This document shows, one piece after another, positions 27,032-62,317 of a stretch of DNA of 64,000 bases. The stretch is from contig CM000154.2 in assembly GCA_000004695.1 (NCBI GenBank), positions 4,320,001-4,384,000 on the forward strand. Reading direction: 5' to 3'. Positions within the stretch are counted from its first letter, which is position 1, and each line of letters starts with the position of its first letter. Origin of the DNA: Dictyostelium discoideum. Its lineage: Eukaryota. The position numbers and the translations under genes are program-made. A model generated the notes under the pieces. That model was given only the letters and a program-made list of their open reading frames with translations. It did not search any database and was not told the DNA's origin.

Positions 27032-29692
<2,661 letters not shown>

Positions 29693-31209: not shown

Positions 31210-31276
<67 letters not shown>

Positions 31277-38105: not shown

Positions 38106-40111
38106 ATGGATAATAATAATAATCCAAATAATAATAATCCAAATAATAATAATAATAATAATAATAATGATTATAATAAATGTCATTATCATCCGACTAA
38201 TGAAATAAATTTAATTTGTTTAGAAGCAGAGTGTAAATTAATGCCATGTTGTGTAGCTTGTATGTCAATTAGTGGGAAACATCATAGACATAGTTTTGAT
38301 TTAGTTAATAATTGTATTTCAAAAATTATTGATAATTTTAAAAAAATATATCCAAATATTTCAAAAAGAATTAATGATTATAAAGAATTATCAGAAAAAT
38401 CAAATTCGATTCATTCAAATTCTAAATTAGATTTTTATAAAAATATTGCTCTTAATGATAAAGTTTTTGCAAATTTAATTAATACTTTAAGTTCAATTCA
38501 AAGAAATATAAAAAATGAATTACAAACAAATCAAGATAAAAATTATGAACTAAATTCAAATGAATCTTTACTAATAACTAATAATAGTCAAATACTTTCA
38601 AATATTTTAAATAATGTCTCAATTGATCATTTGGATGATTCAATTAATAATGATAATAATGATAATATTAATTTAGTTAAATATTATCAACAATCTTTAG
38701 AAGTTTTAAATGATGAAATCATTGAAATTGATTATCAAAATTCTTTACTAACTTTCGATCTTCAACTAATTGAAGAATTAAAAGAAAATTTTAAAAAAAT
38801 TTATTCAATTAATCAATCAGATAATATTAATATTGAAGATGAAGAAGAAGAAGAGGATGAAAAATTTAAGATTGGAATTGATGAAAATGGCAATGGGTTT
38901 GTAAAGAGTATGTATGGTGTGTGTAATTTTAAAGAGAAGGGGGTGGATGATGATGATTATTAATATGAATTTTTTTTTATTTTTTATTATTTTAAAATTT
39001 AGATGAAAATAAAAAGTATTATATTTATTCAGAGAATAGTGAACAAGAAGATAAAGATTCAGTTGCATTTGGAGAAGATTGTGGTAATTTATTAAACATT
39101 AGATCAAATAGAGTATTGAAGAATGTAATGTTGTTAGATGGATTTAAAGAGAGTTTAGGAGTTGGTGTATTACCAGATAGTATTGAATATTTGGAGATAT
39201 GTGATATTAAAACACCTTTGGTGGTTGGATCAATACCATCAAGTGTAAGAACATTGGTATTAAATGATGGATTTAGTCAACCATTAGAACCTGGTATTAT
39301 ACCATCAAGTGTAAAAAGTTTAGATTTACATAATATTAAAAATCGATTAAATGTTGGTTCAATTCCAAGATCAGTTGAAAATTTGGTTTTAAATAATGGA
39401 TTTAATCAACCACTTTTAGTTGATGTAGTATCGTTAATATCAGATGGTGTAAAATTTTTAACATTACATAAAATTAAAAGCCAATTAAAGGTTGGCTCAA
39501 TTCCAAAAACAGTAAAGAAATTAAGTATTGGTGATGGATTTTCACAATATTTGGAAAGTGGAATTGTTCCAAATGGTGTAATTACATTATATATTAATAA
39601 TATTAAACAACAGTTACAAATTGGATCAATTCCAACTTCTGTAAAATTTGCAACTTTTGGTGAAGGATTTAGTCAATTGCTTTCACCTGGCATTATTCCA
39701 AAGGGTGTAATGATGTTGTTTTTCTATAACATTAAATGTCCATTGGTTATTGGTTCAATTCCAATTTCAGTTACATGGCTAACTTTTTATAATGGTTTCA
39801 ATCACTCAATATCACCTGGTATAATCAGTAAAGGTGTGGAAAGATTATTATTACATGATATTAAACAACCATTAGAAATGGGTTCAATACCAACAACAGT
39901 AACTCACATCGTACTTGAAGATGGATTCAAACAAGCACTAACACCAGGAATCATTCCAAATTCAATAAAAGAATTAACTTTAAAAAATGTAAATCTTCAA
40001 TTAGTTGAAGGTTCAATACCAAGACAAATTCCAAGAATTATTTTAAATAATTTTAATGAATCATTAGAAAATTGTAATTTAGATCAATCCGTAGAAATAA
40101 AAATAGAGTAG
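38106..40111 (+). CDS. B-box zinc finger + coiled-coil + FNIP-repeat protein, array copy 1 (intact, ~626 aa): join(38106..38907,39033..40111)
   Basis: Exon 1 has poly-N, then the B-box [37 protein letters not shown], a helical region and an acidic run, and ends ...[15 protein letters not shown]. The intron is GTATGT...TTATTCAG (phase 1). Exon 2 has 13 or more ~22-aa FNIP repeats (GSIP.SV..L.L.DGFNQ.L.PG.IP..V). The splice position matches the other copies by homology. Confidence 0.65.
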
Positions 40112-40163: not shown

Positions 40164-40378
40164 GATTTAATAAAAATTAAATTTTAAAAAAAAAAAAAAA
40201 AAAAATTCCTTTTTAAAAATAAAATAAATAAAATTATTAAATCGATGTGCAATTTTTTTTTTTTTTTTTTTTTTTAAAATTTTAAGTTTATTAAATCATG
40301 ATTGTTTTTTTTTTTAACCACCCACACCACAAACCATCAACAAAAACACTATTTCCATTTTTTTTTTTTTTTAATTTT

Positions 40379-40446: not shown

Positions 40447-41181
40447 ATGAATAAAGATAATAACAATAACAAATGTTCATTTCATCCAAATAAAAATTTA
40501 GAACTTTTATGTTTTAATTGTAAATTTATTCCATGTTGTATGCACTGTATTTCTCAACATGGTGAACACCATGGTCATAAAACAAATTGTATAGATTCAA
40601 TTGAAACATCAAATATTCTCAAAATGATGAATTTATTTAAAAATGATATTATTCCAAAATTAAAAGAAATAGTTGAAAATGATAAACAAATAATCAATAA
40701 ATCTGAAAATATTTATAATGAAATTAATCAACAATATGAAAATAATAAAATTTTAGTAACAAACGAATTTAAAAAGTTTCATACATTAATTCAAATTAAT
40801 CAATTAGATATTGAAAATCAATTAAGAACAACATTTGATGAAAATACAATAATATATACTATTATTAATTCATCAATCAATAATAATAATAATTATAATA
40901 TTAATGATGATAATAATTATGGTATTAATATAGAATCAATAGGTAATAAATTAGATAATCTCAATGATACTCACTTACAATATTGTAATGAAAATCAAAT
41001 TTATAACTGGCTTGAGAATCAAGATATTTATCAATTATTTAAAAAATATCAACAATCAACCTTAATAGTTAATAATAAAAATAATATTGAAAATTTAAAT
41101 AAATTAAAAGAATATAATAATCAATCAATAGTATTTAAAATAATGAATGAAATTAAAAATAATTTAAAATTAATTTATTAA
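40447..41181 (+). CDS. B-box/coiled-coil protein, exon-1-only member of the array (244 aa; truncated copy 2)
   Basis: N-terminal B-box [37 protein letters not shown]. It is collinear with exon 1 of the intact copies up to ...NNLKLIY and then hits TAA where the others continue (EFDNINN...KFIKS + intron). No FNIP exon follows; the coding relic follows instead. It is either a stand-alone short protein or a pseudogene. Confidence 0.4.
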   Translation: MNKDNNNNKCSFHPNKNLELLCFNCKFIPCCMHCISQHGEHHGHKTNCIDSIETSNILKMMNLFKNDIIPKLKEIVENDKQIINKSENIYNEINQQYENNKILVTNEFKKFHTLIQINQLDIENQLRTTFDENTIIYTIINSSINNNNNYNINDDNNYGINIESIGNKLDNLNDTHLQYCNENQIYNWLENQDIYQLFKKYQQSTLIVNNKNNIENLNKLKEYNNQSIVFKIMNEIKNNLKLIY

Positions 41182-41339
41182 ATTTTATGAAAAAATGAAA
41201 AGTTGGTGTAAATATTTTTATTTTTTTATTTTTTTATTTTTTTATTTTTTTATTTTTTTTTTTTTTTTATCCAGATTTTAATTTTTTATTTTTTATTCAT
41301 CCCTTTTTTATTATATTTTAGTTATTTTATTTAACAACA

Positions 41340-42180
41340 AACACTGTTCTTTTTCTTTTATTTCTTTAAGTTTATCTTTGTCTAATTCAATGCCAAAACC
41401 ATCATTATATGTTTCTTGAAGATCAGCTAACATACAGAGTATTGACGATTTTGTTTAAATGATCCAAATTTCCTCGGTATGTTGGAGTTATTTTAAAATG
41501 ATTAATTTTTAAAAAAAAAGTTTTCCACATACACACTATTGGAGCTTACAAAATTAGGTAAAGATATATCTAGAAAAAAAAATAATAAAATAATAAAAAA
41601 TAAAAAATACCAATAATATAATTATTTTAATAATAATAAAAAAAAAAAAAAATAAAAAAAATAAAAATAAAATAAAATTAATAACAAAGTATTAAAAGTA
41701 AGAGATTTGGTTATTTAAATAATTACCCAATATTGGAAAGCTATCATGTTTACGAATAATTTTACCATTATTATAGTATTGTGGCTCTATTTTGGTATTT
41801 TCTAGTATATATTTGATCATGAACGGAACCTGGGAATCCCTCAGGATGTAGTAACAATAATCTGTATGATCTAGTGCATACCTCACAATGAAATTTGACC
41901 ACATGACTTTACTTTTACCAGAATAATAATTTTTTTTTGGATTTGATGAGTGGGAGTTTCAATATCAATAGAGGTAGATTCAGCAGCAATCGCACGATAA
42001 AGCACATTAGATATAGGATGTTTTAAAAAGCCAACTGATTCAACAAGTTTATCTCTTTTCCATTATTTCCTTGCATACAACTCAAAGTGAATGGTTGACT
42101 ATAGTGATTTTGAAATGTTTTTGGACTAATACCAAAAGTAACACATATCTCATAAATTGGAAGATATTGTTTCCAATATA
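41340..42180 (-). pseudogene. GC-richer degraded coding relic (possible transposase/HTH-containing element or gene fragment)
   Basis: The minus-strand translation gives long coding-like stretches broken by stops: ...LPIYEICVTFGISPKTFQNHYSQPFTLSCMQGNNGKEINLLNQLAF*...KVMWSNFIVRYALDHTDYCYYILRDSQVPFMIKYILENTKIEPQYYNNGKIIRKHDSFPILGNY... and MLADLQETYNDGFGIELDKDKLKEIKEKEQCLLLNK. Composition is clearly less AT-rich than neighbouring intergenic DNA. I cannot place the family. Confidence 0.3.
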
Positions 42181-42491
42181 AGAGAGTCTAACACAAAAAA
42201 AAAAAAAAAAATAAATAATGTTATTAATTAATTCATTTTATTTTTTACATTTTTTATTTTTTTTTTCTGTTTATAATTTTTTTTTTTTTTTACTTTGTTT
42301 AATTTAGGACTTGGTGTAATTTTACAAAATTATTTAATTTAATTTAATTTAATTTAATTTAATTTAATTTAATTTTTTTTCATTTTTTTTGTAAAAAAAT
42401 AAAAATTTTCACACCAACTTTTCATTTTTACATAAAATTTTTTTTATTTTTTTTTTTATTTTTTTTATTTCTATTTCGAAAAATTATTAAG

Positions 42492-43550
42492 ATGGTTAAA
42501 AAAATAAGAGTTATTATACCCTTTATGTTGGAAAAGGCTTATGAAGATATAAATAATAATGATTATATAAATAAAAAAAATATTTACGGGATTTGGGTAT
42601 ATAAAACAAATAATACAAAAAAAATGTATATTGAAACAAAATCAGAACAAGGTTCACTTCCTCTTCTAGTTCATTTACAAAATGAACATTTATCGTCTAG
42701 AAAAGTCGAGTTATGGCTTGTTGAAAATAAAATTTATATACCAAAGTTAAGAGAAAAATATTTATATTTTTTAAAATGCAAAAAATGGTAAGATAAATTT
42801 ATTTATTTATTAAAATAATAATATATTAATATTTGTTATAATAAGTCAAAAAAGAAAAGATAAAAGAAATAAAAAAAAAAACCAAATTAAAGAAAAAGAA
42901 ATTTACATTAAAGTTGAAGATAATAAAGAAATTAGCGAAAACGAACGTGATTTAATTGAAGAAAATAAAAAAGAAGTTAGCGAAAATGAATGTGATTTAA
43001 TTGAAGAGGATGATGATGAAATATTATGTGAAGATGATGAAATACCATGTGGACAACCAATCTCATCGGAAGAAGATGAGCCAACTCGTTATACTTTAAC
43101 ATTGATTTCAAAAACGATCAAATTGAAAGAAATAAAAATGACAATGGTACAAATAAAAAAGAAAAATTAAAAATTGAAATTGATGAAAATAAATTTAAAT
43201 TTATAATGAGTAAGTGTAAATAAAAATTTAATAATTATTATTATTTTATATTAATATTATAATATATGTGTATATATTTATATATATATATATTATAAAT
43301 AGATGATAATAAAAAATATTATATATATTCAAAGAATAGTAAATTTTCAGATTATCAAGATAAAGATTCAATTGCATTTGGAGAAGATTGTGGTAGTTTA
43401 TTAAAATTTAAATTAAAAACAAATATAAAGAGGGTTATGTTATTAGATGGATTTAAAGAAAGTTTAGAACCAGGTGTATTACCAAATGGTATTGTACATT
43501 TAGAAATGAACTGGTATAAAAAAAGTTTTTGAGGGAAAAAAAAAAAGGAG

Positions 43551-43581
<31 letters not shown>

Positions 43582-43925
43582 AAAAAAAAAAAAATAAATT
43601 AATCCACATTTTTAGTAATTTTATAAAGAGTAAAAAAAAAATTTAATTTTCCTTTTTTTTAAAAAATAAATCCACTACTTTTGTGTGTAAACAAACTAAA
43701 ATGGCTTCTTAAGAATTTATTTTTTCCCCTTTTTAGTTTTTTTTTTATACCTGAATCTGGAAAATTAAAAATTCATAATTTTGAAATTATTATAAAATAA
43801 TGTTTAAAAAAAAGGGGTAATGGTGAAAAAATTAATAAAAAAATTACGATTAAAAAAATTATTTTAAATGATTTTCCAGAAGAATCATTAAAAGTTTGTA
43901 AACTAAATAAATCTATAGAGATAAA
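42492..43925 (+). pseudogene. chimeric, decayed array copy (unrelated 99-aa ORF + exon-1 tail + truncated FNIP exon)
   Basis: 42492-42791 is a free-standing ORF, MVKKIRVIIPFMLEKAYEDINNNDYINKKNIYGIWVYKTNNTKKMYIETKSEQG.... Next come an internally duplicated acidic segment (EISENERDLIEENKKEVSENECDLIEE), then ...[19 protein letters not shown], the exon-1 tail of the family. Then come a family-type intron, an FNIP exon 2 start at ~43330 (...[52 protein letters not shown]) and the extreme C-terminus at 43800-43925. Most of exon 2 is deleted. Confidence 0.5.
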
Positions 43926-44232
43926 AATTTTTAAATAAAATAAAACAAAAAACTATTATATAAACAAAAAAATAGAAATAAATAAATTAATTTTCATTTG
44001 TAAAATTGGATTTAGTCTTGATTGGTTTAAAAATTTGATAATATTATACCATATGTTTTGTCATTGGAATTTTTTTAAAAGAATAAGTTTGATAAGAAGA
44101 AAATATATGTTAGGTTTTCTTTGAAGGTAATTAATGATCATCAAACCTTTCATTTTCAGTATTGATGAAGTGAAATTAGGAATTGGATACATTTTATAGT
44201 TTTTTTTTTTTTTAATTTCATATGAATTTTAC

Positions 44233-44263
<31 letters not shown>

Positions 44264-44268
44264 AAAAA

Positions 44269-44960
44269 TTGATTGAATTTGTATACCATTTGAACCTAAA
44301 AGATGGATTCTCTCAAACATTAAAGCCAGGTGTTATTCCAAAAACTATTAGAATTGTAACATTACACCAAATAACAAAACCATTAGTAATTGGATCAATA
44401 CCAAATACAGTCTTAAGAATAGAATTTCATAAAGGCTTTAACCAATTCCTTACTCCAGGTATTATATCAGAAGGTGTTAAATCATTAGAATTTTAATGAT
44501 TTAACAGTTTTAAGAATACAATTTCATAAAGGATTTAACCAATTACTTACAGCTGGTATTATACCAGAAGGTGTTAAATCATTAGAATTCCACCAAGTTA
44601 AATACTTATTGATTGTCGGTTCAATTCCTAACTCGATTTATTTATTATGTTTACTGGATGGCTTTAATCAAATAATATCACCAGGCATAATTACTAATGG
44701 AGTGTGCGAGTTAGGTTTGGGAGAAATTAAACAACCATTATTTGTGAATTCAATACCTAATTCCGTCACCAAATTTAATATCATTAATGGATTTTATCAC
44801 TAACGCCTGGAATCATTTCAAATTCAATAAAGAAATTAACTCTATGTACTGTAAATATATGAAATTAGTTGAAGGGTCAATTCCATAAAATTATTTTATA
44901 TGGTAATGTTGAACCATCATCTTTAGATGTTTGTAAATTAGATAGATATGTACAAATAAT
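44269..44960 (+). pseudogene. FNIP-exon fragment with internal ~110 bp duplication, frameshifts and stops (decayed copy)
   Basis: ...[66 protein letters not shown] and then the same segment duplicated. The 3' part carries several stops (...NGFYH*RLESFQIQ*...). No exon 1 is associated. Confidence 0.6.
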
Positions 44961-45064
44961 AAAAAATAATTTATAATAATAGTAGAATCTTTGTAAATAA
45001 TAAAGGATCAAAACAAAAAAATAAAAATAAAAATAAATAAATAAATTAAATAAATATATAATTT

Positions 45065-45420
45065 GGTTCATCAATTTTATCAAATATTCTATTAATTTAA
45101 TTTGAATTTGTTTTTTTTATTTTTTTTATTTATTTATTTTTATATTTATTATTTAACTATTTAATTAATTTTATATTTTCTTTTGTTTCAATCATACAAT
45201 TAATTCACTCGAGATATAAATATATTCTTGTCTTTGAGTGATCATTTATTAATGTATGAATTTTTAAAAATTTTCAATTAATCCATTGCCTTTGTTGTTG
45301 ATGTTGTTGGTAGTCTAGTGGATTTGATAATATTATAATTTATTTATCTTAATATAAAAAGTAACCCAATTGATTCAAAAAAAATAAAAAATAAACCAAT
45401 TCAGTCTTTTTTTGTTTTTT
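45065..45420. repeat. conserved array spacer element, copy 1 (~350 bp), containing a fragment homologous to the 60155-62317 coding sequence
   Basis: ~85% identical to 47765-48130. It contains CACTCGAGATATAAATATATTCTTGTCTTTGAGTGA and CCATTGCCTTTGTTGTTGATGTTGTTGGTAGTCTAGTGGATTTGATAATATT, which match 60755-60850 (within the coding region of the minus-strand coiled-coil gene). Confidence 0.6.
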
Positions 45421-45470
45421 ATTTTAATATCTAAATTTTATAATATCTCAATTTTTCACTCAAATTTTTA

Positions 45471-45517
<47 letters not shown>

Positions 45518-45655
45518 TTTTTAAGATTTTTTAATTTTATTATAATACGATCACTGTCTACAATAATAATAACACATTAAACTATTATCAAAAATAATAA
45601 AAATTTTTACCCACACATTTTTTTTTTTTTTAATCAATAACAAATAATATTAAAA

Positions 45656-47557
45656 ATGAATAATGATTTAATATTAGATAATAACAATAACAATAAGAAA
45701 TGCACACTTCATAGAAATAAAATTTTAGAACTTTTATGTTTAGATTGTAAATTTATTCCATGTTGTACTCAGTGTTTTTCCAAGATGGTCAACACCATGG
45801 TCATAAAACAAATTGTATGGATTCAAAAGCAACATCAGATATTCTCAAAATGGTGAATTTATTTAAAAATGATATTATTCCAAAATTAAAAGAAATAGTT
45901 GAAAATAATAAACAAATAATTAATGAATCTGACAATATTTATAATGAAATTAAACAACAATATGAAATTAATAAAAATTTGGTAATAGATGAATTCAATA
46001 AATTTCATAAAATACTTCAAATTATTCAATTAGATATTCTAAAGCAATTAGAAACAACATTTGATGAAAATACATTAGTAAATACTATTATTAATTCATC
46101 AATCAAAAATAATGATAGTTATGGTATTACTATGGAATCAATGAGTAATGAAATAGATAATCTCAAGCATACTCACTTACAATATTGTGATGAAAATCAA
46201 ATATATAACTGGCTTGAAAATGAAGAAATTTATCAATTAATTAAAAAATATCAACAATCATCATTAATAGTAAATAATAAAAATTATATTGGTAGTTTAA
46301 ATATATTAAAAGAATATAATAATCAATCAATACTATTCAATAATTAAATAATTGATGATATTAAAAATAATTTAAAATTAATTTATGAGTTTGATAACAA
46401 TAAAAACAACCAAAATAAAAACAATAATCGTATTAATTATAATAAAAATGAAAAATTAAAAATTGAAATTGATGAAAATAATTTTAAATTTATAAAGAGA
46501 AAGTAAGAATTTAAATTATAAATAAAATTTAAATTATTATTAATATATATCAATATATATTATAAATAGATGATAATGAAAAATATTATATATATTCAAA
46601 GAATAGTGAATTTTCAAATCATAAAGATAAAGAGTCAATTGCATTTGGAGAAGATTGTGGTAGTTTATTAAAATTTCAATCAAAAACAAATTTAAAGTTA
46701 TGTTATTGGATGAATTTAAAGAAAAATTAGAACCGGGTGTATTACCAAATGGTATAAAATATTTGGAAATAGGAGATATTATAACACTATTAGTAGTTGG
46801 ATCGATACCACCTGGTATCATTCCTTCTTATCCACCAAATGAAGGTCATTGGTTTAAATAATTTTCATTTCCATTGTTCTTAGGTGTAAGATTCCTAACA
46901 TTACATAAAATTAAAAGTGAAGTAAACATTGGATCAATTCCAGTGTCAGTATCGCGTTTGAATCTAAAAGATGGGTTCTCTCAAACATTACAGCCAGGTG
47001 TTATTCCAAAAACTGTTAAAACTGTAATATTACAGGAAATAACAAAACCATTAATAATTGGATCAATACCAAATACAGTTTTTACAATAGAATTTCATAA
47101 AGGCTTTAACCAATTACTTACAGCAGGTATTATACCAGAAGGTGTTTATTCATTGGAATTCCACCAAGTTAAGGACTTATTGATTGTCGGTTCAATTCCT
47201 AACTCGATTTATTCATTATTTTTAAAGGAAGGCTTTGATCAAAAAATATCACCAGGTATAATTACCAATGGAGTGGGCCTATTACATTTAGGAGAAATTA
47301 AACAACCATTATTAGTGAATTCAATACCAAACTCTGTCACCAACTTGTATATCACTAAAGGATTTAATCAATCACTAACACCTGGAATCATTCCAAATTC
47401 AATAAAGGAATTAACATTGGGTACTGACAACATACAATTAGTTGAAGGATCAATTCCAAAAACAATTCAAAAAATTATTATAAGTGGAGATATAGAACCA
47501 TCATTCTTAAATGTCTGTAAATTAGATAAATCTATACAAATAGATAGCAATTATTAA
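45656..47557 (+). pseudogene. B-box + FNIP array copy with frameshifts in both exons
   Basis: Exon 1 (45656-~46503) is broken into two or more frames (B-box ...CTQCFSK / MVNTMV... shift; ...SILFNN* and then ..[16 protein letters not shown] in another frame). Family intron. Exon 2 (46560-47557) has a deletion and frameshift near ttaaagttatgttattggatgaatttaaag, and only the 227-aa distal part (46874-47557) is open. Confidence 0.6.
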
Positions 47558-47723
47558 TAATAGTATACTTTTTTATTTATTAAAGTATTAACTTATCTCA
47601 AATATTTTAATTTTACAAAGAATAAAAATAAAATAAAAAATAAAAAGGGAAGAAGGAGAAAATATTGAATAGTGGAATTCCATTTGTAAATATTAAAGGA
47701 TCAAAAACATGTGAAAAAAAATA

Positions 47724-47756
<33 letters not shown>

Positions 47757-47764
47757 AATAAATA

Positions 47765-48130
47765 TAAAGTTGGGTTCATCAATTTTATCATATATTTCAA
47801 TTAATTTAATTTGAATTAATTTTTTAATTTTATATTTTTATTATTATTATTCAAAGATTTAATTGGTTTAATTTTCTTATGTTTCAATCATACAATTAAT
47901 TCACTTGAGATATCAATATATTCTTGTCTTTGAGTGAACATTTATTAATATATGAATTGAAATTTTCATTTAATCCGTTGCCTTTGTTGTTGATGTTGTT
48001 GGTAGTCTAGTGGATTTGATAATATTATATTTATCTTAAAATTGCTCCTGATCGACACTCAAAATTAAAAGGTTCGATGATCAATAATTACCTTAATTGA
48101 AAAATTAACCCAATTGATTCAAAACCAATA
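47765..48130. repeat. conserved array spacer element, copy 2
   Basis: See 45065-45420. It shares a 29-bp exact block GAGATATCAATATATTCTTGTCTTTGAGT with 60757-60785. A third, shorter relic lies at ~50400-50470. Confidence 0.6.
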
Positions 48131-48519: not shown

Positions 48520-48916
48520 ATGAATAAAGATATAATATTAGATAATAATAATAACAATAACAAATGTACACTTCATACAAATAAAAAACTAAAACTTTTA
48601 TGTTTAGAATGTAAATTTATTCCATGTTGTATTCAATGTATTTCTAAAGATGGCGAACACCATGGTCATAAAACAAATTGTATAGATTCAATGGAAATAT
48701 CAAATATTCTCAAAATGATGAATTTATTTAAAAATGATATCATTCCAAAAATAAAACAAACAGTTGAAAATGATAAACAAAAAATCAATGAATACTTCAA
48801 ATTCTTCATTATTTAATATGATATCGAAAGGCAATTAGAAACAACATTTGATCAAAATACATTAATATATACTATCATTAATTCATCAATCAAAAATAAT
48901 AATCAAAATAATAAGG

Positions 48917-48979
<63 letters not shown>

Positions 48980-50357
48980 GCAATATTAATAATGATAATA
49001 ATGATAATGATAATTGTTATTATGGTATTAATATAAAATCAATAAGTAATAAATTAGATAATCCAATGATAATCACTTACAAAATTGTGATGAAAATCAA
49101 ATTTATAACTGGCTTGAAAATGAAGAAATTTATCAATTAATTAAAAAATATCAACAATCATCATTATGAGTTTAATAATAACAACAACCAAAATAAAAAT
49201 GTTACTATTGTAGAAAACAATAATAGTATAAAAATAAAAAATTAAAGATTGAAATTGATGAAAATAATTTTAAATTTATAAAGAGTAAGTGTTAAAATTA
49301 CAAATAAAAGTGTAGTTTTATTATTATTATTTATTAACATAATAATAATTTTATAAATGTGATTATAGGAAATATTATATTCAGAGAATAGTGAATTTTC
49401 ATTTTATAAAGATAAAGATGCAATTGCATTTGGAGAAGATTGTGGTAGTTTATTAAAATTTAAAGAGAGTTATGATAATTTTAATTTAACCAGTGTTATG
49501 TTATTAGATGGATTTAAAGAAAGTTTAGAACCAGGTGTAGTACCATATGGTATTTATAATATGGAAATAGGTGATATTAAAACACCATTAGTAGTTGGAT
49601 CAATACCATCAACCGTTTCAAGTTTAACATTACATGATGGATTTAATCAATCATTAGAACCTGTTATTATTCCTTCTTATCCAAAAAATAATGGACTCAA
49701 GCCATATTATTGATATTTTCATCCAGTGGATGTGTAAGATACTTAGAATTACATAATATTAAAAGTGAACTTAAAATTGGATCAATTCCAGGGTCAGTAT
49801 GCCAATTGACATTAAAAGATGGATTCTCTCAAATATTAAAACCAGGTGTTATTCCAAAAACTGTTGGGATTGTTAGAATAACAAAACCATTAGTAATGGG
49901 ATCAATACCAAATACAGTTTTAACAATAGAATTTGATAAAGGCTTTAACCAATTACTTACAGCAGGTATTATACCAGAAGGTGTTATCGGATTAAGATTC
50001 CACCAAGTTAAGGACTTATTGATTGTCGGTTCAATTCCAAAATCGATTTATTCATTATTTTTCAAAGATGGCTTTAATCAAATATTATCACCAGGTATAA
50101 TTACTGATGGAGTGTGTGAGATAATTTTGGGAGAAATTAAACAACCATTATTAGTGAATTCAATACCGAATTCTGTCACAAAATTGCATATCATTAATGG
50201 ATTTAATCAATCACTAACACCAGGAGTCATTCCAAATTCAATAAAGGAATTAACTTTAGGTAGTGTAAAAACACAATTAGTTGAAGGATCAATACCAAAA
50301 ACAATTCAAAAAATTATTTTAAAAGGAAATATTGAACCATCATATTTTTTTTTTTGA
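48520..50357 (+). pseudogene. B-box + FNIP array copy with premature stop and deletions
   Basis: Exon 1 is open only to ...KINEYFKFFII* (48816). The remaining exon-1 sequence is recognisable but out of frame. Exon 2 is split into two frames (49498-49713 and 49710-50357) with an aberrant C-terminus ...EPSYFFF*. Confidence 0.6.
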
Positions 50358-50624
50358 TTCTTAATTATTTACAAAGTTGGAACCCTTTAAATATATCGCT
50401 AATAATTCAATTTATCATTTGCTGATATTGATTAGTTATTTGACGTTGTTGTTATTCTAGATTTAATTGATTTTTTTTTTTTTTTGATTTAAAAATTCCA
50501 ATTTTGAAATTAAAAAATAAATAAATAATATATAGAATGTTCATATTCATTTTAATTATATCTTATATAATTTTGTGCTCTATTTATTTGTAAAAGTTTT
50601 TTTTATAGTTAACTTAAAATTTAA

Positions 50625-50685
<61 letters not shown>

Positions 50686-50849
50686 AAAAATTGAGATTTA
50701 ATTAATTTGGATTTAAATTTTATTAAAATTTAGAATCACCACATAATAACAACATGTCAAACTATAAATACAATAACAAAAAAATTTTCACCCACAACAC
50801 ACCCCTTTTTTTTTTTTTTTTTTTTTTCAAATTTTTGATAATATTAAAA

Positions 50850-53203
<2,354 letters not shown>

Positions 53204-53937
53204 TTATAAATAATTAAGTATTATTCCGATACCAATTCTCAAATATTACAGGATTAATTAATTTCAGAAATACTTCAAGTTCCTCAATAAAATTTCGAAA
53301 GGCAGCCAAAAACAAAAGATTTAAAATTATTTTTTAGATATTAATTAAATAGGTTTCAATTAAATTACATTTCTGGTAGCAGTAATAACATTTATTTTAA
53401 TAAAAAAAAAAAAAATAATAATAATTACTCATTTTATTCAATTTTAATTTATACTAATTATTATTATCATACAAGTAGTAAACAAAGGAAGAGTATTTGA
53501 TGTTTATCAAGTATGTGTTTATTTTATTTTATTTTATTTTTTTGTAAAATTTTTATTTTTCACTCGATTAAATTGAAACTAATTTCTTTTTGATCCTTTA
53601 TTATTTACAAATATTCTACTATCCATCATTTTCTCCTCTTCCTCTTTTTTTAATTCTTGTAAATTTTAATATTTGAGAATGGATAGGTATAATACTCTTT
53701 TATTTATTATTATTAATATTTATTTATTAATACAGATTTATCCAATTTACATCTAACCCAATTCACACCTAATTTTATTAAATCTGATTTCGATAGGTGA
53801 TTTAAATTTACAAGATAACACGTTTCTAATGGTTGTTCGATTATATCGTAAATAGAACTTGTGGCGGTTATTGGTTATTATTATTAGTTGTTGTTGCTTA
53901 TTAATGATATTACTATTACTTCTATTGCTATTATTAA

Positions 53938-54003
53938 TATTACTATTACTATTACTATTACTATTACTATTACTATTACTATTACTATTACTATTACTAT
54001 TAG
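53938..54003. repeat. (ATTACT)n hexanucleotide repeat, ~11 units
   Basis: Read directly in the 2.2 kb spacer between array copies. Confidence 0.9.
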
Positions 54004-55277
54004 TTGGATTTGATTTTTTTTAACTGAATCATTTAAAGTTAAAACAAATGAGCATTTATCTGGTTGTGTTGCTTTGATACAATAGTTACCTACTTATAAA
54101 TGGTTGAAATTTACCATCAATATTGCTGATTGTTGAAGGCACTTTTGGTAATGTAATTGATACATTTTATTTACAGTCACTTGATTTTATTTCAAATTTG
54201 TATGTTTAAAAAAAAAAAAAAAAAGAAAAATAAACTAATTCAATCAAATCAATCACTTTTTTGATTTTTTTTTAAAGACAAAAAGATTTATAAATTTTAT
54301 AAATTAGAGATGGTGTAATCTGAAAAAAAAAAAAAAAATGAGAAAAATAAAAAATTTATTTTTTGATTATTTTTTTATTTATTTATGTTTAACATTTAGT
54401 TGGATTCAAACCATCCTGTTAAATCAATTTTCTTTTTTTTTTTTCGGGATATTGTTAATTGAAAACTTCAAACATCCCAAATATTGTATGGCTTTTAATA
54501 TCAGAATTAATTTTTTTAATTCTTTTTGATAGCTGTTTTAGTTCTTTTTTGTTGAAAATTCAAATTTAAATTGGTGATAATATCATCAGCAATTAAATTT
54601 AAATTTTTAATTAATTCTGATTTTTTTAAAATGACTACACCAACTTTGTATGGAAGCTCATATAAAAAATTTTTATTAAATGAATATGCTGTAGAAATTT
54701 TTTTTTTTTTCTAATGAAAGATTGTTTAAATCTTATTTTGGATTGATAAAAATAGTTTTTTTTTATCTCCAAACAAAGTTAAGAGATATAATATAAATTT
54801 AAATTTAAAAGATTTATTATTATATTTACATTTTATATAATGTTATCCAACAATTGATCAACTCGTAAAATATCATAAAATGTCTATTTTTAATATAGTT
54901 TTATTATTGATGGTAAATAATAAAACTATATTAAAAAAATTAAATAATGTAAAAAAAAACATTTTAATTTTAAATGATTTAAATCCAATAAATAGTAAAG
55001 ATAGGTTATCTCAAATACCATTAATTATTGATGGTATTAAAATATTTTCAGTTGTGGATACAACATATTTAATATACAGAATTAGATGAACATGCTAGAA
55101 TAATTATTTTTATTTTTAATATTTGGATAATTTTTAATCCAACGAGAGCTAACAAATAAAATCTAAATCATTTTTAATTTATTCATACATTTGTTTTTTT
55201 TTTTTTTTTTAATTTTTTTTTTTTTTTTTAATTTTTTTTTTTTTTTCAAATTTGATTTCTAATTTATAAAATCATAT

Positions 55278-55422: not shown

Positions 55423-57665
<2,243 letters not shown>

Positions 57666-58103
57666 TAATAATAATAAATATGTCTATATCCATTCTCAAA
57701 TATTAAAATTTACAAAGAATTAAAAAAAAGAAAAAGGAAAGGAAGAAGGAGAAAATGATGAGTAGTAGAATATTTGTAAATAATAAAGGATCAAAAACAA
57801 AAAATAAATTCCATCAATTTTATCCTTAATTATTATTATATTTTTAAATTTTTTTTTTTTTTTTTTATTGAAATTATTTTTTAAATATAATCAATTTTAT
57901 ATTTTTTTTTAATTAAAATAAAAGCTAGATATTTTTTTTTAATTAAAATAAAAGCTAGATATTTTTTTTTTTTTTTTTTTTTAAATTTTTTTTTTTTTTT
58001 TTTTTTTTTTCACTCCAAATCAAAAAGTTTTGTTTAATTTTATTTTTAGTTTTTCAGATAAAAAAAAAAAAAACATAAATACTTTAATAATTCTTTTTTT
58101 AAT

Positions 58104-58823
58104 ATGATTGAAAATAAAATAGAACAGAACTGTGCACTCCACACAAATAAAAATTTAGAATTTTTATGTTTAGATTGTAAATTAATACCATGTTGTACAT
58201 TATGTATTTCTAGAGGAGGTGAACATCATCGTCATGGAATTGATTCATTAGAATCAATACAAACATCTTCAATTCTTTCAATGATGAATAGTTTTAAAGA
58301 TGTTTATCCAAAAGTAATTGAAAGAATAGAAAATGATCAACAGATATTAAAAGATTCTGATGAAATTTTCAATGAAATTCAATCACAATATAATAAAAAT
58401 AAAATCACACTAAACCAAGAATTTAAAAAAATTCATAACATACTTTCAATACTTGAATTGGATATTGAAAGACAATTAACTACAGATTTCGAAATAAATA
58501 CATTAATAAATACAACTATAACCTCTTCAATAAATAATGATATTGACAATTATAATAAAAATAAAAATAATAATTCAATCACAGATATATTAAATATTTC
58601 TATAAAAAATATACAACAATATAATGATGATGATTACTATAAAATAGATTCAAATTCAATCGAATTAATAAAACAATACCAACAATCATTACTATTATTA
58701 AATAATAACAATAATATTGATAATTTAAATAAATTAAAAGAATATAATAATCAAACCATTAAATTCGATAACCAAATAATTAATGATATTAGAAGTAATT
58801 TAAAATTAATCTATTCTTTTGAA

Positions 58824-58917
<94 letters not shown>

Positions 58918-60044
58918 CTGAAAAATTAAATATTGAAATTGATGAAAATAATTTTAAATTTATAAAGAGTATGTTGTATAAATAAATAAATAGATAAATA
59001 TATATATATAAATAAATAAATAAATATTAACAATATTGATATATTATTATAAAAATAGAACAAAATAAAAAATATTATATTTATTCAGAGAATAATGAAT
59101 TTCCAAAAAATGAAGAAAGAATTGCATTTGGAGAAGGTTGTGGTAGTTTATTAAAAGTTAATTGGAATAAGAATTTAAAGAATGTAATGTTATTAGATGG
59201 ATTTGAAGAAAGTTTAGAACCAGGTATATTACCAGATGGTATTGTACATTTAGAGATATTTGATATTAAAACAGAATTAGCAGTTGGATCAATACCATCA
59301 ACAGTTACAAGTTTAACATTTAATGATGGATTTAATCAATCAATTGAAGTTGGTATTATTCCATCAAGTGTTATTTATTTAGATTTACATGATATTAAAC
59401 AACCATTAAAGATTGGTTCAATCCCACAATCAGTACAAGATTTGAAACTTTGCAATGGATTCTCTCAACCATTAGAACCAGGTATTATTACAAATAAAAT
59501 TAAAACATTAAGTATTCATGAAATTAAAACTCAATTACAAATAGGATCAATTCCAAATAGCGTCACTCATATGGTATTTTACGATGGCTTTAACCAATTA
59601 CTTTCAGCAGGTATTATACCAGAAGGTGTTTCATGGTTATTCTTTTTTAATATAAAAATCCCATTAGTTGTTGGTTCAATTCCTCAATCAATTTATTATT
59701 TAGTTTTCAGTGATGGTTTCAATCAAACAATATCACCAGGTATAATTACTAATGGTGTGGAAATTTTATGTTTACGTGATATTAAACAACCATTAGAAGT
59801 AAATTCAATACCAAAATCTGTAACCAATCTACTTATTGATAGTGGTTTCCAACAACCATTAACACCAGGAATCATTCCAAATTCAATAAAAGAATTAGCA
59901 TTAGGAAATATAAAAACTCAATTAGTTGAAGGATCAATTCCAAAGAAAATTCAAAAAATTATTTTAGATAAAAATTTCAACCAATCCTTAGAAATTTGTG
60001 ATTTAGATAAGAGTGTAGAAATAAGAACAAATTATTTAAAGTAA
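58104..60044 (+). CDS. B-box + coiled-coil + FNIP-repeat protein, array copy (intact, ~606 aa): join(58104..58968,59089..60044)
   Basis: ~90% identical to the 55423 copy in exon 1. Same donor (AAG A | GTATGT) and acceptor (TTATTCAG | AGAATAATGAATTTCC) and the same phase. Exon 2 has 12 or more FNIP repeats and ends at the stop at 60044. Confidence 0.65.
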
Positions 60045-60154: not shown

Positions 60155-60606
60155 TTAAAACCAACCAGACATAAAAGATCCTTTTTCTTTTTCTTTTTCT
60201 TTTCCATTGCCATTACCATTCTGAATTGGTGATGATGTATTACTATTATTATTTGGTGGCGAAAATAATGGTTGTGTTTGAGTTTGAGTTGTTTGAATTT
60301 GTGGTGGTTGCATTTGAATTTGTGGATTGTGACTATTTTGTTGTTGTTGTTGTTGTTGTTGCTGTAAATTTGATTTTAAATTTAATGGATCTAATAATGG
60401 TTGTGGTTGTAAATTATGTGGTGATTGAGCGCCATTACTTAATGATTCTTGTGTTATTATAAAGCTATTATGATTAATACTACTGCTACTATTACTACTA
60501 TTATTACTATTATTATTATTTGATTTTACAATTGGTGATGAATTTGATTTTATATTGCTATTTGTATTATTCGTACTATTATTATTATTATTATTTGTAT
60601 TATTAC

Positions 60607-60685
<79 letters not shown>

Positions 60686-62317
60686 TAAACCTTTTAATTG
60701 ATTTAATTCCTGAATTAATTTTAAATTATCTTTTTTTGAATCATTTAATTGATTAGAGATATCAATATATTCTTGTCTTTGAGTTAGAATTGAATCTTTG
60801 AATTTATTTTTCATTTCATCCATTGTTGTTAATGATTGTTGATAACGAGTTAACATTTGACTATATCTTTCATTTGAGAATTCAAATTTACCTTCAGATT
60901 CTTCCAATTTTCTTTTTAAATCATCGTTTTCTTCATGAAGTTGTTTCTCTAATTTCAATACTCTTTGTTTATGAGTATCTCTCTCCAAAGTGACAGTTTT
61001 TAAATCGATTTTCAATTTTTCAATGGTTGAATTCATAGAGATTGATTTCACTTCAGTTTCTGATATTTTATTGGTTAAATCTGATATTTTATTCATTAGA
61101 TCTTCTCTCTCTCTTTGAAGTGTACGAATTGTATCTCTAAGCTGTGATGGATCTCTATTCATTAAATTATCTCTTGCTGGTGTTGGTTTATTATTTGGTG
61201 TTGATGTTGATGATGATGATGTTGATGTTGTTGTTGGTCTAGTTGGGCTTGACAATATTCTACCTGATGTTGTCATTAATGTTGTACTTGCTATTGGTTT
61301 CTTTAATGGACTTGGTGTTGGTTTATTAAGTGATGATGATGATGATGATGATGATGATGTTGTTGTACTAGTAATTGGTCTATGGAGTGATGATGATGAT
61401 GTTGATGTTGTTGATGGTGTTGGTTTATGAAGTGATGATGATGTTGTTGTTGTATCTTTATGAGTATGCTCTTTACTATCAGAATGAGTTGAATAAGAAG
61501 ATAATACAGGTGATGCATCAATTGGTGATGTTTTATTTGAAGAAGGTGGAGTTGGTGATACTCTTGGTGTTAATTTATTTGAACCTAAACTACTACTACC
61601 ACCACCACCACCACCACTACTACTATTATTATTTGCAGGCATTGGTGGTTTTAATGATGATCCTGATGATGATAAACTCTTTCTATCTTTTGTTGTTGTT
61701 GTTGTTGTTGTTGTTGATGGTGTATCTGTTGATTTATTCGATGATATACTTGGTCTAGATGATGATGATGATGATGATGATGATTTTGAAGGTAATGTAT
61801 GATGATGAGAATCAGTTTTTTTCATCATTGATGCTACAGTTGGTGTTGATAATTTATCAGTTAATTTTTTAGATGATAAAGTTGATGAAGCTGAATTTGA
61901 AGTTGAAGAAGTAGAGGAAGTACCTCCTGTTGTTGATTTTCTTGGACCTGGGAATGTACTTGATAATGATGTTGATGATAATCTATCAGACATTAATGGA
62001 TTTGATTTTAATGTAGTTGAATTATTTGATGTTGATGATAAATTTGTTTTTGATTTATTGGCTGTTAAAGTTGATGGTGTTTTTTTTACAGTTGATGATG
62101 TTGTTGATGATGATGATGATGATGATGATAATGATTTAGTTTTTGATAATGTTGATGAAATTGGTGTTGTTGAAACTGGTTTGTGTGGTGTTGATGATAT
62201 TGTAGTTGTAGTTGTTGAAGATGGATGTGTAGCTGTTGATGGTTTAGTTGATTCATTTATAGATTTCTTATCACCATCATTATTACCACCATTAATTAAT
62301 GAGGTTGGGCTTGACAT
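60155..62317 (-). CDS. 720-aa Ser/Thr-rich coiled-coil protein with poly-Asn/poly-Gln and C-terminal (GN)n(KE)n tail
   Basis: Single long minus-strand ORF. N-terminal 420 aa are S/T/P-rich low complexity. Residues ~420-560 are heptad-like (LRDTIRTLQREREDLMNKISDLTNKISETE...LERDTHKQRVLKLEKQLHEENDDLKRKLEE...). Then N(30), Q-rich, ...GNGNGKEKEKEKGSFMSGWF*. The coiled-coil coding DNA at 60755-60850 is the source or homologue of the spacer-element fragment. Confidence 0.6.

What the first reader, a model, noticed from the sequence alone, without database searches (positions are those of the whole stretch)
45065..48130. Array spacer elements carry a captured fragment of the neighbouring coiled-coil gene
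The ~350-bp conserved spacers at 45065-45420 and 47765-48130 (with a shorter relic ~50400-50470) contain ~100 bp that align to 60755-60850, which lies inside the coding region of the minus-strand gene 60155-62317. This includes a 29-bp exact block GAGATATCAATATATTCTTGTCTTTGAGT and the conserved stretch TTTCATTT(C/A)ATCC(A/G)TTG..TTTGTTGTTGATG(A)TTGTTG. This suggests the ancestral duplication unit spanned an FNIP gene plus part of a 60155-type gene, so the spacers are pseudo-exons. Alternatively, it is a shared regulatory or transcribed element.
Basis: seen in the sequence. Interest (0 to 1): 0.6.

Follow-up and report, generated by a model that had tools for sequence, protein, structure and literature searches.

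The report
Decayed neighbour-gene fragment in array spacers
Two spacers between tandemly repeated B-box/FNIP genes of a Dictyostelium-like genome each hold a dead, roughly 150-280 bp leftover copy of part of the neighbouring coiled-coil gene, which is ordinary debris of segmental duplication and not a working element.

Summary
Coiled-coil (cc) gene segment 60701-60844 aligns to 45151-45312 (74.7%) and 47856-48004 (75.2%), same orientation. Alignment z-scores are 15.1 and 13.7 against dinucleotide shuffles. The flanks stay significant without the 29-mer, which is exact at 47907-47935 and 60756-60784 and has one mismatch at 45211-45239.

The copies match cc codons ~481-560: the end of the coiled coil plus the start of the poly-Asn tract. 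They carry stops and frameshifts. Their substitutions fall evenly on codon positions (16/11/10). They form a 19-23% GC island in 9-13% GC spacer. I found no tRNA, Rfam or RNA-folding signal.

Both lie inside larger paralogous blocks (44281-45386 and 46949-48130), downstream of degenerate genes G1 and G2.

Relic-to-cc identity (~70-75%) matches the G1-G5 versus G6 split (68-74%). sp1-to-sp2 identity (84.5%) matches the G1-G5 burst (84-87%).

The most likely history is a founding segmental duplication spanning an FNIP gene and the 3' part of the convergent cc gene, then loss of the cc tail, decay, and copying with the unit.

The claimed third relic at 50400-50470 is not significant. This is an ordinary gene relic of low interest.

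The parts
45108..45341 (-). Relic of the coiled-coil (cc) gene in spacer 1 (sp1), downstream of degenerate gene G1. The core match is 45151-45312. The 29-mer with one mismatch is at 45211-45239.
   Evidence: blastn 74.7%, 98 bits. Extended alignment 45057-45341 vs 60598-60875. z=15.1. Minus-strand frame broken by stops and frameshifts.
47785..48025 (-). Relic of the cc gene in spacer 2 (sp2), downstream of degenerate gene G2. The core match is 47856-48004. The exact 29-mer is at 47907-47935.
   Evidence: blastn 75.2%, 86 bits. Extended alignment 47778-48025 vs 60614-60866. z=13.7. Minus-frame reading YQQHQQQRQRIK*KFQFIY**MFTQRQEYIDISSELIV*LKHKKIKPIKSLNNNN.
60621..60875 (-). Segment of the cc gene that the relics correspond to: codons ~481-560, the end of the coiled coil plus the start of the poly-Asn tract. 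The core is 60701-60844. The 29-mer at 60756-60784 encodes TQRQEYIDIS.
60155..62317 (-). Intact 720-aa ORF of the cc gene: a Ser/Thr-rich N-terminus, a coiled coil at about aa 383-545, and an Asn/Gln-rich tail. It is convergent with the last array gene G6, whose stop codon ends at 60044. It is the likely parent of the relics.
   Evidence: Pfam gives only weak sub-threshold hits. No homologue in the large protein database.
44281..45386 (+). Paralogous block A: the 3' part of degenerate gene G1 (stop codon 44974-44976), its 3' flank, and spacer 1 with the relic.
   Evidence: 80-97% identical to block B in 60-column bins; identity falls to 49-67% beyond 45386/48130.
46949..48130 (+). Paralogous block B: the 3' part of degenerate gene G2 (ORF ends at 47557), its 3' flank, and spacer 2 with the relic. 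It contains an extra 57-70 bp at 48040-48109.
50400..50470 (.). Claimed third relic in the G3-G4 spacer. It cannot be distinguished from chance. G3 has a truncated 3' end, so a deletion could have removed most of a relic here.
   Evidence: z=2.0, 0.1 and -0.3; 0.5-0.6. G3 ends in EPSYFFF*.
54000..54175 (-). Marginal, much more decayed possible copy of the same element in the 2.2-kb G4-G5 spacer. It lies directly after an (ATTACT)n run at 53875-54005.
   Evidence: Colinear alignment to sp2, z=3.3, 5/500. Not significant vs sp1 (z=1.1) or the gene (z=0.5). Minus-strand reading.

Best explanation
The conserved cores of the two spacers are non-functional relics (a pseudogene fragment) of the neighbouring coiled-coil (cc) gene.

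Most likely history:
1. An old segmental duplication copied a B-box/FNIP gene together with the 3' part of the convergent cc gene. Its breakpoint was near codon 481 of cc (about 60875). This left a truncated cc piece at the junction between two array units.
2. The piece lost the cc C-terminal tail, about 350-450 bp between the intergenic region and the poly-Asn (ATT)n tract. It then decayed without constraint.
3. A later burst of tandem unit duplication produced G1-G5 and copied the relic along with its unit. It survives recognisably only after G1 and G2. The other spacers lost it through deletion or AT-biased decay.
4. G1-G3 themselves became pseudogenes.

Shown: the homology, its orientation and extent, the loss of coding capacity, the absence of coding constraint, co-duplication with the unit, and relative ages that fit the model.

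Inferred: that the founding event was one contiguous duplication, the tail deletion, and the loss of the relic from the other spacers.
For: - Homology is far above chance and extends beyond the 29-mer on both sides.
- Both relics have the same orientation as the cc gene. Both lie 130-300 bp past the stop codon of the upstream FNIP gene, in the middle of the spacer where two units join.
- The reading frame is destroyed.
- 37 differences are shared by both spacers against the gene. They fall 16/11/10 on codon positions 1/2/3. Of the 37, 13 run GC to AT and 11 run AT to GC.
- Relic GC is 19-23% against 9-13% in the adjacent spacer (19% to the right of the sp2 relic) and 25-28% in cc coding sequence.
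- In the aligned relic, sp1 and sp2 differ from each other at about 16 of 175 sites. A further 37 sites are differences shared by both spacers against the gene. So the capture predates the sp1/sp2 split.
- The relics are embedded in blocks 44281-45386 and 46949-48130, which are 80-97% identical.
- Ages fit. Exon-2 identities are 84-87% among G1-G5 and 68-74% between G1-G5 and G6. The corresponding values are 84.5% for sp1 vs sp2 and about 70-75% for relic vs cc.
- G1, G2 and G3 carry frameshifts, premature stops or insertions. The relics therefore sit in the degenerate part of the array.
- Partial gene duplicates and pseudogene fragments next to rapidly expanding Dictyostelium gene families are documented for the tgr genes (PMC12745789).
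Against: - The relic is an internal piece of cc. The 3' tail at 60155 to about 60600 is absent, and no significant homology extends past either relic boundary (z=1.6 and -0.1 on the right, 2.1 and 2.4 on the left). A simple contiguous duplication therefore needs an additional deletion.
- Only 2 of 6 spacers carry a verifiable relic.
- Conservation is uneven. The ancestor of sp1 and sp2 had no change across the 29-bp block, while about 25% of the other ungapped columns changed. A column-shuffle test gives P<5e-5 for the 29-bp run in sp2 and 0.003 for the 21-bp run in sp1. Plain neutral decay does not predict this. It may reflect faster slippage and misalignment in the AT-rich flanks, a short gene-conversion tract, or selection.
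- The rest of the genome could not be searched, so a closer paralogue elsewhere cannot be excluded.
Confidence: 0.78

Rival explanations
1. Templated insertion. The ~230-280 bp piece was copied from the nearby cc gene into the breakpoint of a tandem duplication by replication template switching or repair 'filler' synthesis. In this reading no duplication ever spanned the FNIP gene and the cc gene contiguously.
For: The fragment is short and internal to cc. It lacks both the 3' tail and everything 5' of codon ~481. It sits at the unit-to-unit junction, and no homology extends beyond either edge. Its left edge lies in an (ATT)n-like tract that could supply microhomology. G0 also has an (ATT)14 run right after its stop codon.
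Against: This model has no reason to predict that relic-to-cc divergence should match the G1-G5 versus G6 divergence. There is weak colinearity between the left part of each spacer and the present G6-cc intergenic region (z=2.1 and 2.4). That is what a contiguous duplication followed by a deletion would leave.
Confidence: 0.12
2. The original repeat unit was a complete convergent pair of an FNIP gene and a full-length cc-type gene. Alternatively, the source was a cc paralogue that has since been lost or lies elsewhere in the genome. The spacers hold what remains after large deletions on both sides.
For: Both ends of the cc gene are missing from the relic. The array contains other gene wreckage, including an inverted FNIP C-terminus at 53590-53850 and an FNIP 3'-end relic at 43840-43940. 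The cc coil segment also resembles the coil module of the array genes, which hints at a shared family history.
Against: This needs more events than a partial duplication. A tblastn search with the whole cc protein finds no other cc-derived sequence in the array. Spacers 1 and 2 are only 0.7-0.8 kb long.
Confidence: 0.07
3. The fragment is kept because it works. Read-through transcription of the plus strand from the upstream FNIP (pseudo)gene would be antisense to cc mRNA. It includes a 29-nt perfect match, so it could yield antisense RNA or siRNAs that regulate cc. Alternatively, the shared core is a protein-binding site.
For: Orientation makes plus-strand transcripts antisense to cc. The 29-bp core is more conserved than its flanks. 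sp1 and sp2 are 90-97% identical across the relic core, compared with 77-95% in the adjacent pseudogene coding sequence.
Against: There is no structural RNA signal and no Rfam hit. The relic lies 130-300 bp beyond the stop codon, past several AATAAA motifs. The host genes are pseudogenes. Outside the core the sequence decays like neutral DNA, with 16/11/10 substitutions per codon position and indels. The higher identity in the core is within the range seen in neighbouring bins. Only two copies survive.
Confidence: 0.03
4. The similarity is chance or low-complexity AT-rich sequence, or all three sites are copies of a mobile element.
For: The window has 15-27% GC, and AT-rich spacers give many 40-76-bit blastn hits to one another.
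Against: z=14-15 against dinucleotide shuffles. The flanks are significant without the 29-mer. The next-best hit of the gene segment in the window is 39 bits against 86-98 bits. At protein level the match is specific (TQRQEYIDIS, YQQ, the poly-Asn tract). The window holds only three copies, with no terminal repeats or transposon ORFs, and one copy is in-frame coding sequence of a 720-aa ORF.
Confidence: 0.01

Closest known systems
Duplicated (non-processed) pseudogene fragments, or gene relics, left at segmental-duplication junctions
   Same: A truncated copy of part of a neighbouring gene in its original orientation. It lies at the boundary between tandem repeat units. The reading frame is broken, there is no codon-position bias in the substitutions, and it was co-amplified with the unit.
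   Different: The piece is internal to the parent gene. It lacks the 3' end that a single-breakpoint tandem duplication should include, so at least one further deletion or a template switch is required.
Partial tgr gene duplicates and pseudogenes around the tgrB1/tgrC1 locus of Dictyostelium (PMC12745789)
   Same: The same group of organisms and the same kind of fast-evolving clustered family. [quoted passage not shown]
   Different: There the fragments are pieces of the expanding family itself, and they are proposed as donors for recombination. Here the fragment comes from an apparently single-copy bystander gene at the edge of the array. No recombination back into the parent gene is shown. 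The only hint is the unusually conserved 29-mer.
Dictyostelium B-box/FNIP gene family, e.g. AreA (DDB_G0279871) and the FNIP gene chtB (DDB_G0290617) (PMC4554924, PMC3559258)
   Same: The array genes have the B-box (PF00643) plus FNIP repeat (PF05725) architecture, in two exons with one short intron, as described for these genes.
   Different: This is context only. The finding concerns the spacers and not these proteins. I could not establish whether the window contains either named gene.
Processed (retroposed) pseudogenes
   Same: A non-coding copy of part of a coding sequence.
   Different: The relic lacks the mRNA 3' end. The A-rich run next to it is the decayed poly-Asn (AAT)n tract and not a poly(A) tail after a 3' UTR. 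It lies 13-15 kb from the parent gene in the same orientation and inside a tandem unit.

Membership tests
Duplicated pseudogene fragment (gene relic) | Statistically significant nucleotide homology to a parent coding sequence | tested here: met
   74.7% and 75.2% identity over about 150-160 bp; z=15.1 and 13.7; the flanks are significant without the 29-mer.
Duplicated pseudogene fragment (gene relic) | Coding capacity lost (stops and frameshifts in the homologous frame) | tested here: met
   sp2 has four stops within about 55 homologous codons. sp1 needs frameshifts and also has stops.
Duplicated pseudogene fragment (gene relic) | Substitutions show no coding constraint | tested here: met
   The 37 shared-derived differences fall 16/11/10 on codon positions 1/2/3. 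The sample is small.
Duplicated pseudogene fragment (gene relic) | Arose by DNA-level duplication: it is carried within a larger duplicated block, and its age is consistent with that of the flanking paralogues | tested here: met
   Blocks 44281-45386 and 46949-48130 are 80-97% identical. Identity classes of 84-87% and 68-74% match sp1/sp2 and relic/cc respectively.
Duplicated pseudogene fragment (gene relic) | The parent is the adjacent gene and not another paralogue | not testable with these tools
   There is no other copy in the 64-kb window. The rest of the genome is unavailable. The protein databases and the metagenome scan returned nothing.
Processed (retroposed) pseudogene | Contains the mRNA 3' end followed by a poly(A) tract, usually with target-site duplications | tested here: not met
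   The cc tail and stop codon (60155 to about 60600) are absent, and there is no significant homology left of the (ATT)n tract.
Functional exon or coding paralogue | An open reading frame is retained on the homologous strand | tested here: not met
   All six frames of both spacers are interrupted.
Structured non-coding RNA | A match to a known RNA family, or folding more stable than shuffled sequence | tested here: not met
   No Rfam hits at gathering threshold and no tRNAs. Folding z-scores on both strands are -0.5 to +1.3.
Transposable element or dispersed repeat | Many dispersed copies, defined termini (terminal inverted repeats or long terminal repeats), and element-encoded ORFs | tested here: inconclusive
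   There are only three copies in the window, one of them in-frame inside a 720-aa ORF, and no terminal repeats were seen. Genome-wide copy number could not be tested.
Regulatory or antisense element | Transcribed or bound, and conserved beyond neutral expectation | not testable with these tools
   There is only indirect evidence. The 29-bp core is over-conserved relative to its flanks, but overall sp1/sp2 identity is within the range of the neighbouring pseudogene sequence. No expression data are available.

The most novel reading that the evidence does not exclude
The relics are not inert. Transcribed on the plus strand as the extended 3' ends of the upstream FNIP (pseudo)genes, they would yield RNA antisense to the coiled-coil gene's mRNA. 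This RNA includes a perfectly matching 29-nt block, which could feed the Dictyostelium RNAi machinery or act as a short gene-conversion partner. That would explain why the 29-mer stayed unchanged while the surrounding relic diverged by about 25%.
Probability: 0.04. Interest if true: 0.5.

Novelty: new member of a known kind. Interest (0 to 1): 0.15.

Why it matters
The relic is a molecular fossil. It marks a probable breakpoint, at about codon 481 of the coiled-coil gene, of the duplication that founded this B-box/FNIP array. It also gives two internal time points for the array's history: a founding split at about 70-75% identity and a later burst at about 85%. This is useful for annotation, because these intervals should not be called exons or regulatory elements and G1-G3 should be flagged as pseudogenes. 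It also adds one more example of how clustered families in Dictyostelium-like genomes turn over. It does not reveal a new mechanism or a new class of element.

Tried and rejected
- An exact-sequence look-up of the coiled-coil (cc) protein and two array proteins found none of them in the collection. A homology search with the cc coiled coil found no hits. A metagenome scan for the 29-mer gave 0 matches.
- The tRNA and Rfam scans of the whole window found nothing. The 'GGTAGTCTAGTGG' stretch that looked like a tRNA D-arm is not a tRNA.
- RNA folding of the relics and of the gene segment on both strands shows no excess stability.
- The bacterial promoter/terminator scan is uninformative here: 47 sites against 40 expected.
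- I searched for further relics. The G3-G4 spacer gives z of 2.0 or less. The G0-G1 and G5-G6 spacers give z=-1.0 to 1.5. Region 43930-44060 shares only a 16-mer. The G4-G5 spacer is marginal at z=3.3 against sp2 only.
- I looked for cc homology beyond the relic edges and found none that was significant.
- I tested whether the spacer fragments derive from an inverted copy of an array gene's own coil module and not from cc. This is rejected. The spacers show z of about 0 against all G-gene coil segments but 75% identity to cc.
- blastn with loose scoring (+1/-1) is swamped by AT-rich noise and was used only to gauge the alignment extents.
- The inverted-repeat search returned only (AAT)n/(ATT)n pairs.
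Full report
**Context.** The window has 13-33% GC per 2-kb bin. Its ORFs are full of poly-Asn, poly-Gln, poly-Ser and poly-Thr tracts. It encodes eukaryotic proteins: HlyIII/PAQR, GTF3C1-like and SnoaL-like repeats. From 38.1 to 60.0 kb it carries a plus-strand array of two-exon genes. Exon 1 encodes a B-box zinc finger (PF00643) and a coiled coil. Exon 2 encodes FNIP repeats (PF05725). This architecture is described for Dictyostelium genes such as AreA, and the FNIP gene chtB likewise has two exons and one short intron (PMC4554924, PMC3559258). From my own knowledge, the composition and this family point to a dictyostelid. I could not confirm the species, because the protein databases hold none of the window's proteins that I tried.

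I label the units as follows:
- G0: 38106-40111
- G1: 40447-44976
- G2: 45656-47557
- G3: 48520-50357
- G4: 50847-53203
- G5: 55423-57665
- G6: 58104-60044

The array ends 111 bp before the stop codon of a convergent 720-aa ORF at 60155-62317 on the minus strand, which I call the coiled-coil (cc) gene.

- The 29-mer is exact at 47907-47935 and 60756-60784, and has one mismatch at 45211-45239.
- blastn aligns 60701-60844 to 45151-45312 (74.7%, 98 bits) and 60712-60844 to 47856-48004 (75.2%, 86 bits). The same gene segment finds nothing above 39 bits elsewhere in the window.
- Against dinucleotide-preserving shuffles the local alignment scores give z=15.1 and 13.7.
It fails. With the 29-mer excluded, the right flank scores z=5.2 and 6.1 (0/1000) and the left flank z=5.3 and 2.4.
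- With permissive scoring the alignments run from about 60598-60614 to about 60866-60875, taking in the degenerate (ATT)n tract.
- The two spacers are 84.5% identical to each other.
- The proposed third relic at 50400-50470 is not distinguishable from chance: z=2.0, 0.1 and -0.3, and 0.5-0.6 when a long deletion is allowed.

**What the fragments are.**
- They correspond to cc codons ~481-560, the last part of the coiled coil and the beginning of the poly-Asn run. They have the same orientation as the gene.
- Read on the minus strand, sp2 gives YQQHQQQRQRIK*KFQFIY**MFTQRQEYIDISSELIV*LKHKKIKPIKSLNNNN. The gene gives YQQSLTTMDEMKNKFKDSILTQRQEYIDISNQLNDSKKDNLKLIQELNQLKGLNNNN. sp1 is similar but also frameshifted. 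No frame on either strand is open.
- In a three-way alignment, 37 differences are shared by both spacers against the gene. They fall 16/11/10 on codon positions 1/2/3, so there is no sign of coding constraint.
- The relics have 19-23% GC. The spacer next to them has 9-13% (19% to the right of the sp2 relic). cc coding sequence has 25-28%. The relics are therefore small islands of coding-like composition.
- There are no tRNA or Rfam hits in the window. Neither strand of either relic folds better than shuffled sequence, with z from -0.5 to +1.3.
- The direction of transfer is from a coding cc-type sequence into the spacer. The cc copy is in frame inside a long ORF whose coiled coil continues upstream, whereas the spacer copies are truncated and broken.

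**How the fragments got there.**
- Both relics sit in the middle of their spacer. To the left is the 3' flank shared with other units. To the right is the poly(A)-rich upstream region shared with other units.
- They are part of larger paralogous blocks, 44281-45386 and 46949-48130. These are 80-97% identical per 60-column bin, and identity drops to background beyond them. One ancestral relic was therefore copied together with its unit.
- Within the relic, sp1 and sp2 differ at about 16 of 175 sites. A further 37 sites are differences shared by both spacers against the gene. Capture therefore clearly predates the sp1/sp2 split.
- Pairwise identities among units give two age classes. The exon-2 3' parts of G1-G5 are 84-87% identical to one another but only 68-74% identical to G6. 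The exon-1 parts of G1-G4 are 87-90% identical.
- The sp1/sp2 identity (84.5%) falls in the younger class. The relic-to-cc identity (about 75% in the core, about 70% extended) falls in the older class.
- This pattern is expected if one old duplication copied an FNIP gene together with the 3' part of the convergent cc gene, and a later burst multiplied that unit.

**What remains inferred.**
- A single-breakpoint tandem duplication should retain the cc stop codon and C-terminal tail (60155 to about 60600). The relic lacks them, and I found no significant homology beyond either edge.
- About 350-450 bp must therefore have been deleted between the G-gene 3' flank and the poly-Asn (ATT)n tract before sp1 and sp2 split. 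Otherwise the piece arrived as a templated insertion at the junction, or it is the remnant of a once complete cc copy.
- The left part of each spacer shows weak colinearity with the present G6-cc intergenic region (z=2.1 and 2.4). This leans toward duplication followed by deletion, but it is not decisive.
- The other spacers show no verifiable relic. G0-G1 and G5-G6 give z=-1.0 to 1.5. G3-G4 is covered above. The 2.2-kb G4-G5 spacer has a marginal colinear match to sp2 at 54000-54175, directly after an (ATTACT)n run (z=3.3, 5/500).
- G3 has lost its last ~15 codons. A deletion reaching into its spacer could explain the missing relic there.
- G1 is interrupted by about 2 kb plus further wreckage. 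G2 has a frameshift in exon 1, an in-frame stop, and a split exon 2. G3 is fragmented and truncated. All three are pseudogenes, so the relics lie in the decaying part of the array.

**One feature is not fully explained.** The ancestor of sp1 and sp2 shows no change across the 29-bp block, while about a quarter of the other aligned sites changed. Column shuffling gives P<5e-5 for the 29-bp run in sp2 and 0.003 for the 21-bp run in sp1. Part of this is probably because the AT-rich, slippage-prone flanks evolve and misalign faster. A short gene-conversion tract or selection cannot be excluded. sp2 is not globally closer to the gene than sp1: 7 sp2-specific changes against 3 sp1-specific. That argues against a recent conversion into sp2 alone. 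This is the only basis for the low-probability functional reading, in which plus-strand read-through transcripts would be antisense to cc mRNA.

**Comparison with what is known.**
- This is a duplicated, non-processed pseudogene fragment. Partial duplicates and pseudogene fragments beside fast-expanding Dictyostelium families are documented for the tgr genes (PMC12745789).
- It is not a processed pseudogene, because it has no mRNA 3' end.
- It is not a retained exon, because no frame is open.
- It matches no known RNA family.
- It shows no transposon hallmarks, although genome-wide copy number could not be checked.

**Side finding.**
- The same cc segment (aa ~481-540) weakly resembles the coil module at the end of exon 1 of every array gene, (K/Q)YQQS(L/S)...KEYNNQ...NNLKLIY, which lies on the opposite strand.
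- A profile HMM of that module scores the cc segment above all 2000 shuffles for a 69-aa window, and above all but 11 of 2000 for an 80-aa window.
- hhalign gives P=5.8e-4 but only 29% probability.
- DNA-level alignments give z=2.9-4.4 against the six paralogues, which are not independent tests.
- The spacer relics show no such similarity (z about 0), so they derive from the cc version and not from an inverted array gene.
- Whether cc and the B-box/FNIP family share this module by descent remains open.

**Verdict.** Biologically it is ordinary duplication debris. Interest is 0.15, and it is a new member of a known kind.

Noticed in passing
window 60690-60875 (-) versus 51651-51833, 56119-56265, 58600-58830, 46135-46404, 40948-41175, 38640-38860 (+): The cc protein segment at aa ~481-540 is the same stretch that was captured in the spacers. 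It weakly resembles the YQQS...KEY...NNLKLIY coil module at the end of exon 1 of every B-box/FNIP array gene, on the opposite strand. HMM shuffles give 0/2000 (69-aa window) or 11/2000 (80-aa window). hhalign gives P=5.8e-4 with 29% probability. DNA alignments give z=2.9-4.4. This is suggestive of a shared module but not proven.
   Followed up: partly
window 55423-57665 (G5) versus G6 and G1-G4: G5 is a chimera. Its exon 1 is 96% identical to G6 exon 1 but 71-73% identical to G1-G4. Its exon 2 is 84-86% identical to G1-G4 but 71% identical to G6. This indicates unequal crossing-over or gene conversion within the array.
   Followed up: partly
window 40447-44976, 45656-47557, 48520-50357: Units G1, G2 and G3 are pseudogenes. 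G1 has a premature stop after NNLKLIY and about 2 kb of foreign sequence. G2 has a frameshift near 45790, an in-frame stop at 46345 and a split exon 2. G3 has fragmented exons and a truncated 3' end (EPSYFFF*).
   Followed up: partly
window 53590-54175: The 2.2-kb G4-G5 spacer holds, on the minus strand, a relic of an FNIP gene C-terminus (…[12 protein letters not shown]) with its 3' flank (53590-53850). Next to it lie an (ATTACT)n run (53875-54005) and a coil-like stretch reading MYQLHYQKCLQQSAILMVNFNHL…LNDSVKKNQIQLI. This may be an internally deleted inverted family member.
   Followed up: partly
window 48040-48109 and 44109-44177: The extra ~57-70 bp that spacer 2 has relative to spacer 1 is an inverted copy of a segment inside the wreck of G1 (z=11.9). 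A small sequence has therefore moved or been inverted within the array.
   Followed up: partly
window 43840-43940: There is an isolated relic of an FNIP gene 3' end (…ESLKVCKLNKSIEIKIFK*) inside the disrupted G1 unit (z=5.6 against the G2 3' end).
   Followed up: no
window 41182-43150: About 2 kb is inserted between the G1 exon 1 and exon 2 remnants. Its short ORFs (41692-41904 minus strand, 42492-42791 plus strand) have no Pfam match, and its origin is unknown.
   Followed up: no
window 45211-45239, 47907-47935, 60756-60784: The 29-bp core is far better conserved than the rest of the relic. Column shuffling gives P<5e-5 for the 29-bp run in sp2 and 0.003 for the 21-bp run in sp1. The cause is unresolved: faster evolution and misalignment of the flanks, a short gene-conversion tract, or selection.
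   Followed up: partly
window 57910-57969: There is a perfect tandem duplication of a 30-bp unit (taattaaaataaaagctagatattttttttt) in the G5-G6 spacer.
   Followed up: no
window 27032-29692 and 30088-32619: Two adjacent, closely related long ORFs (886 and 843 aa) on the plus strand have no Pfam domain. They form another young tandem gene pair.
   Followed up: no
window 32727-34592 (-): A 621-aa ORF is made of four nearly identical ~140-aa SnoaL-like repeats separated by Thr/Pro/Ala-rich linkers.
   Followed up: no
window 40320-40329, 45610-45619, 50739-50748: A CACCCACAC / CACCACATAA-like motif recurs 40-130 bp upstream of the start codons of several array genes. From memory it is reminiscent of the Dictyostelium upstream sequence element (DUSE). 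I did not test this.
   Followed up: no
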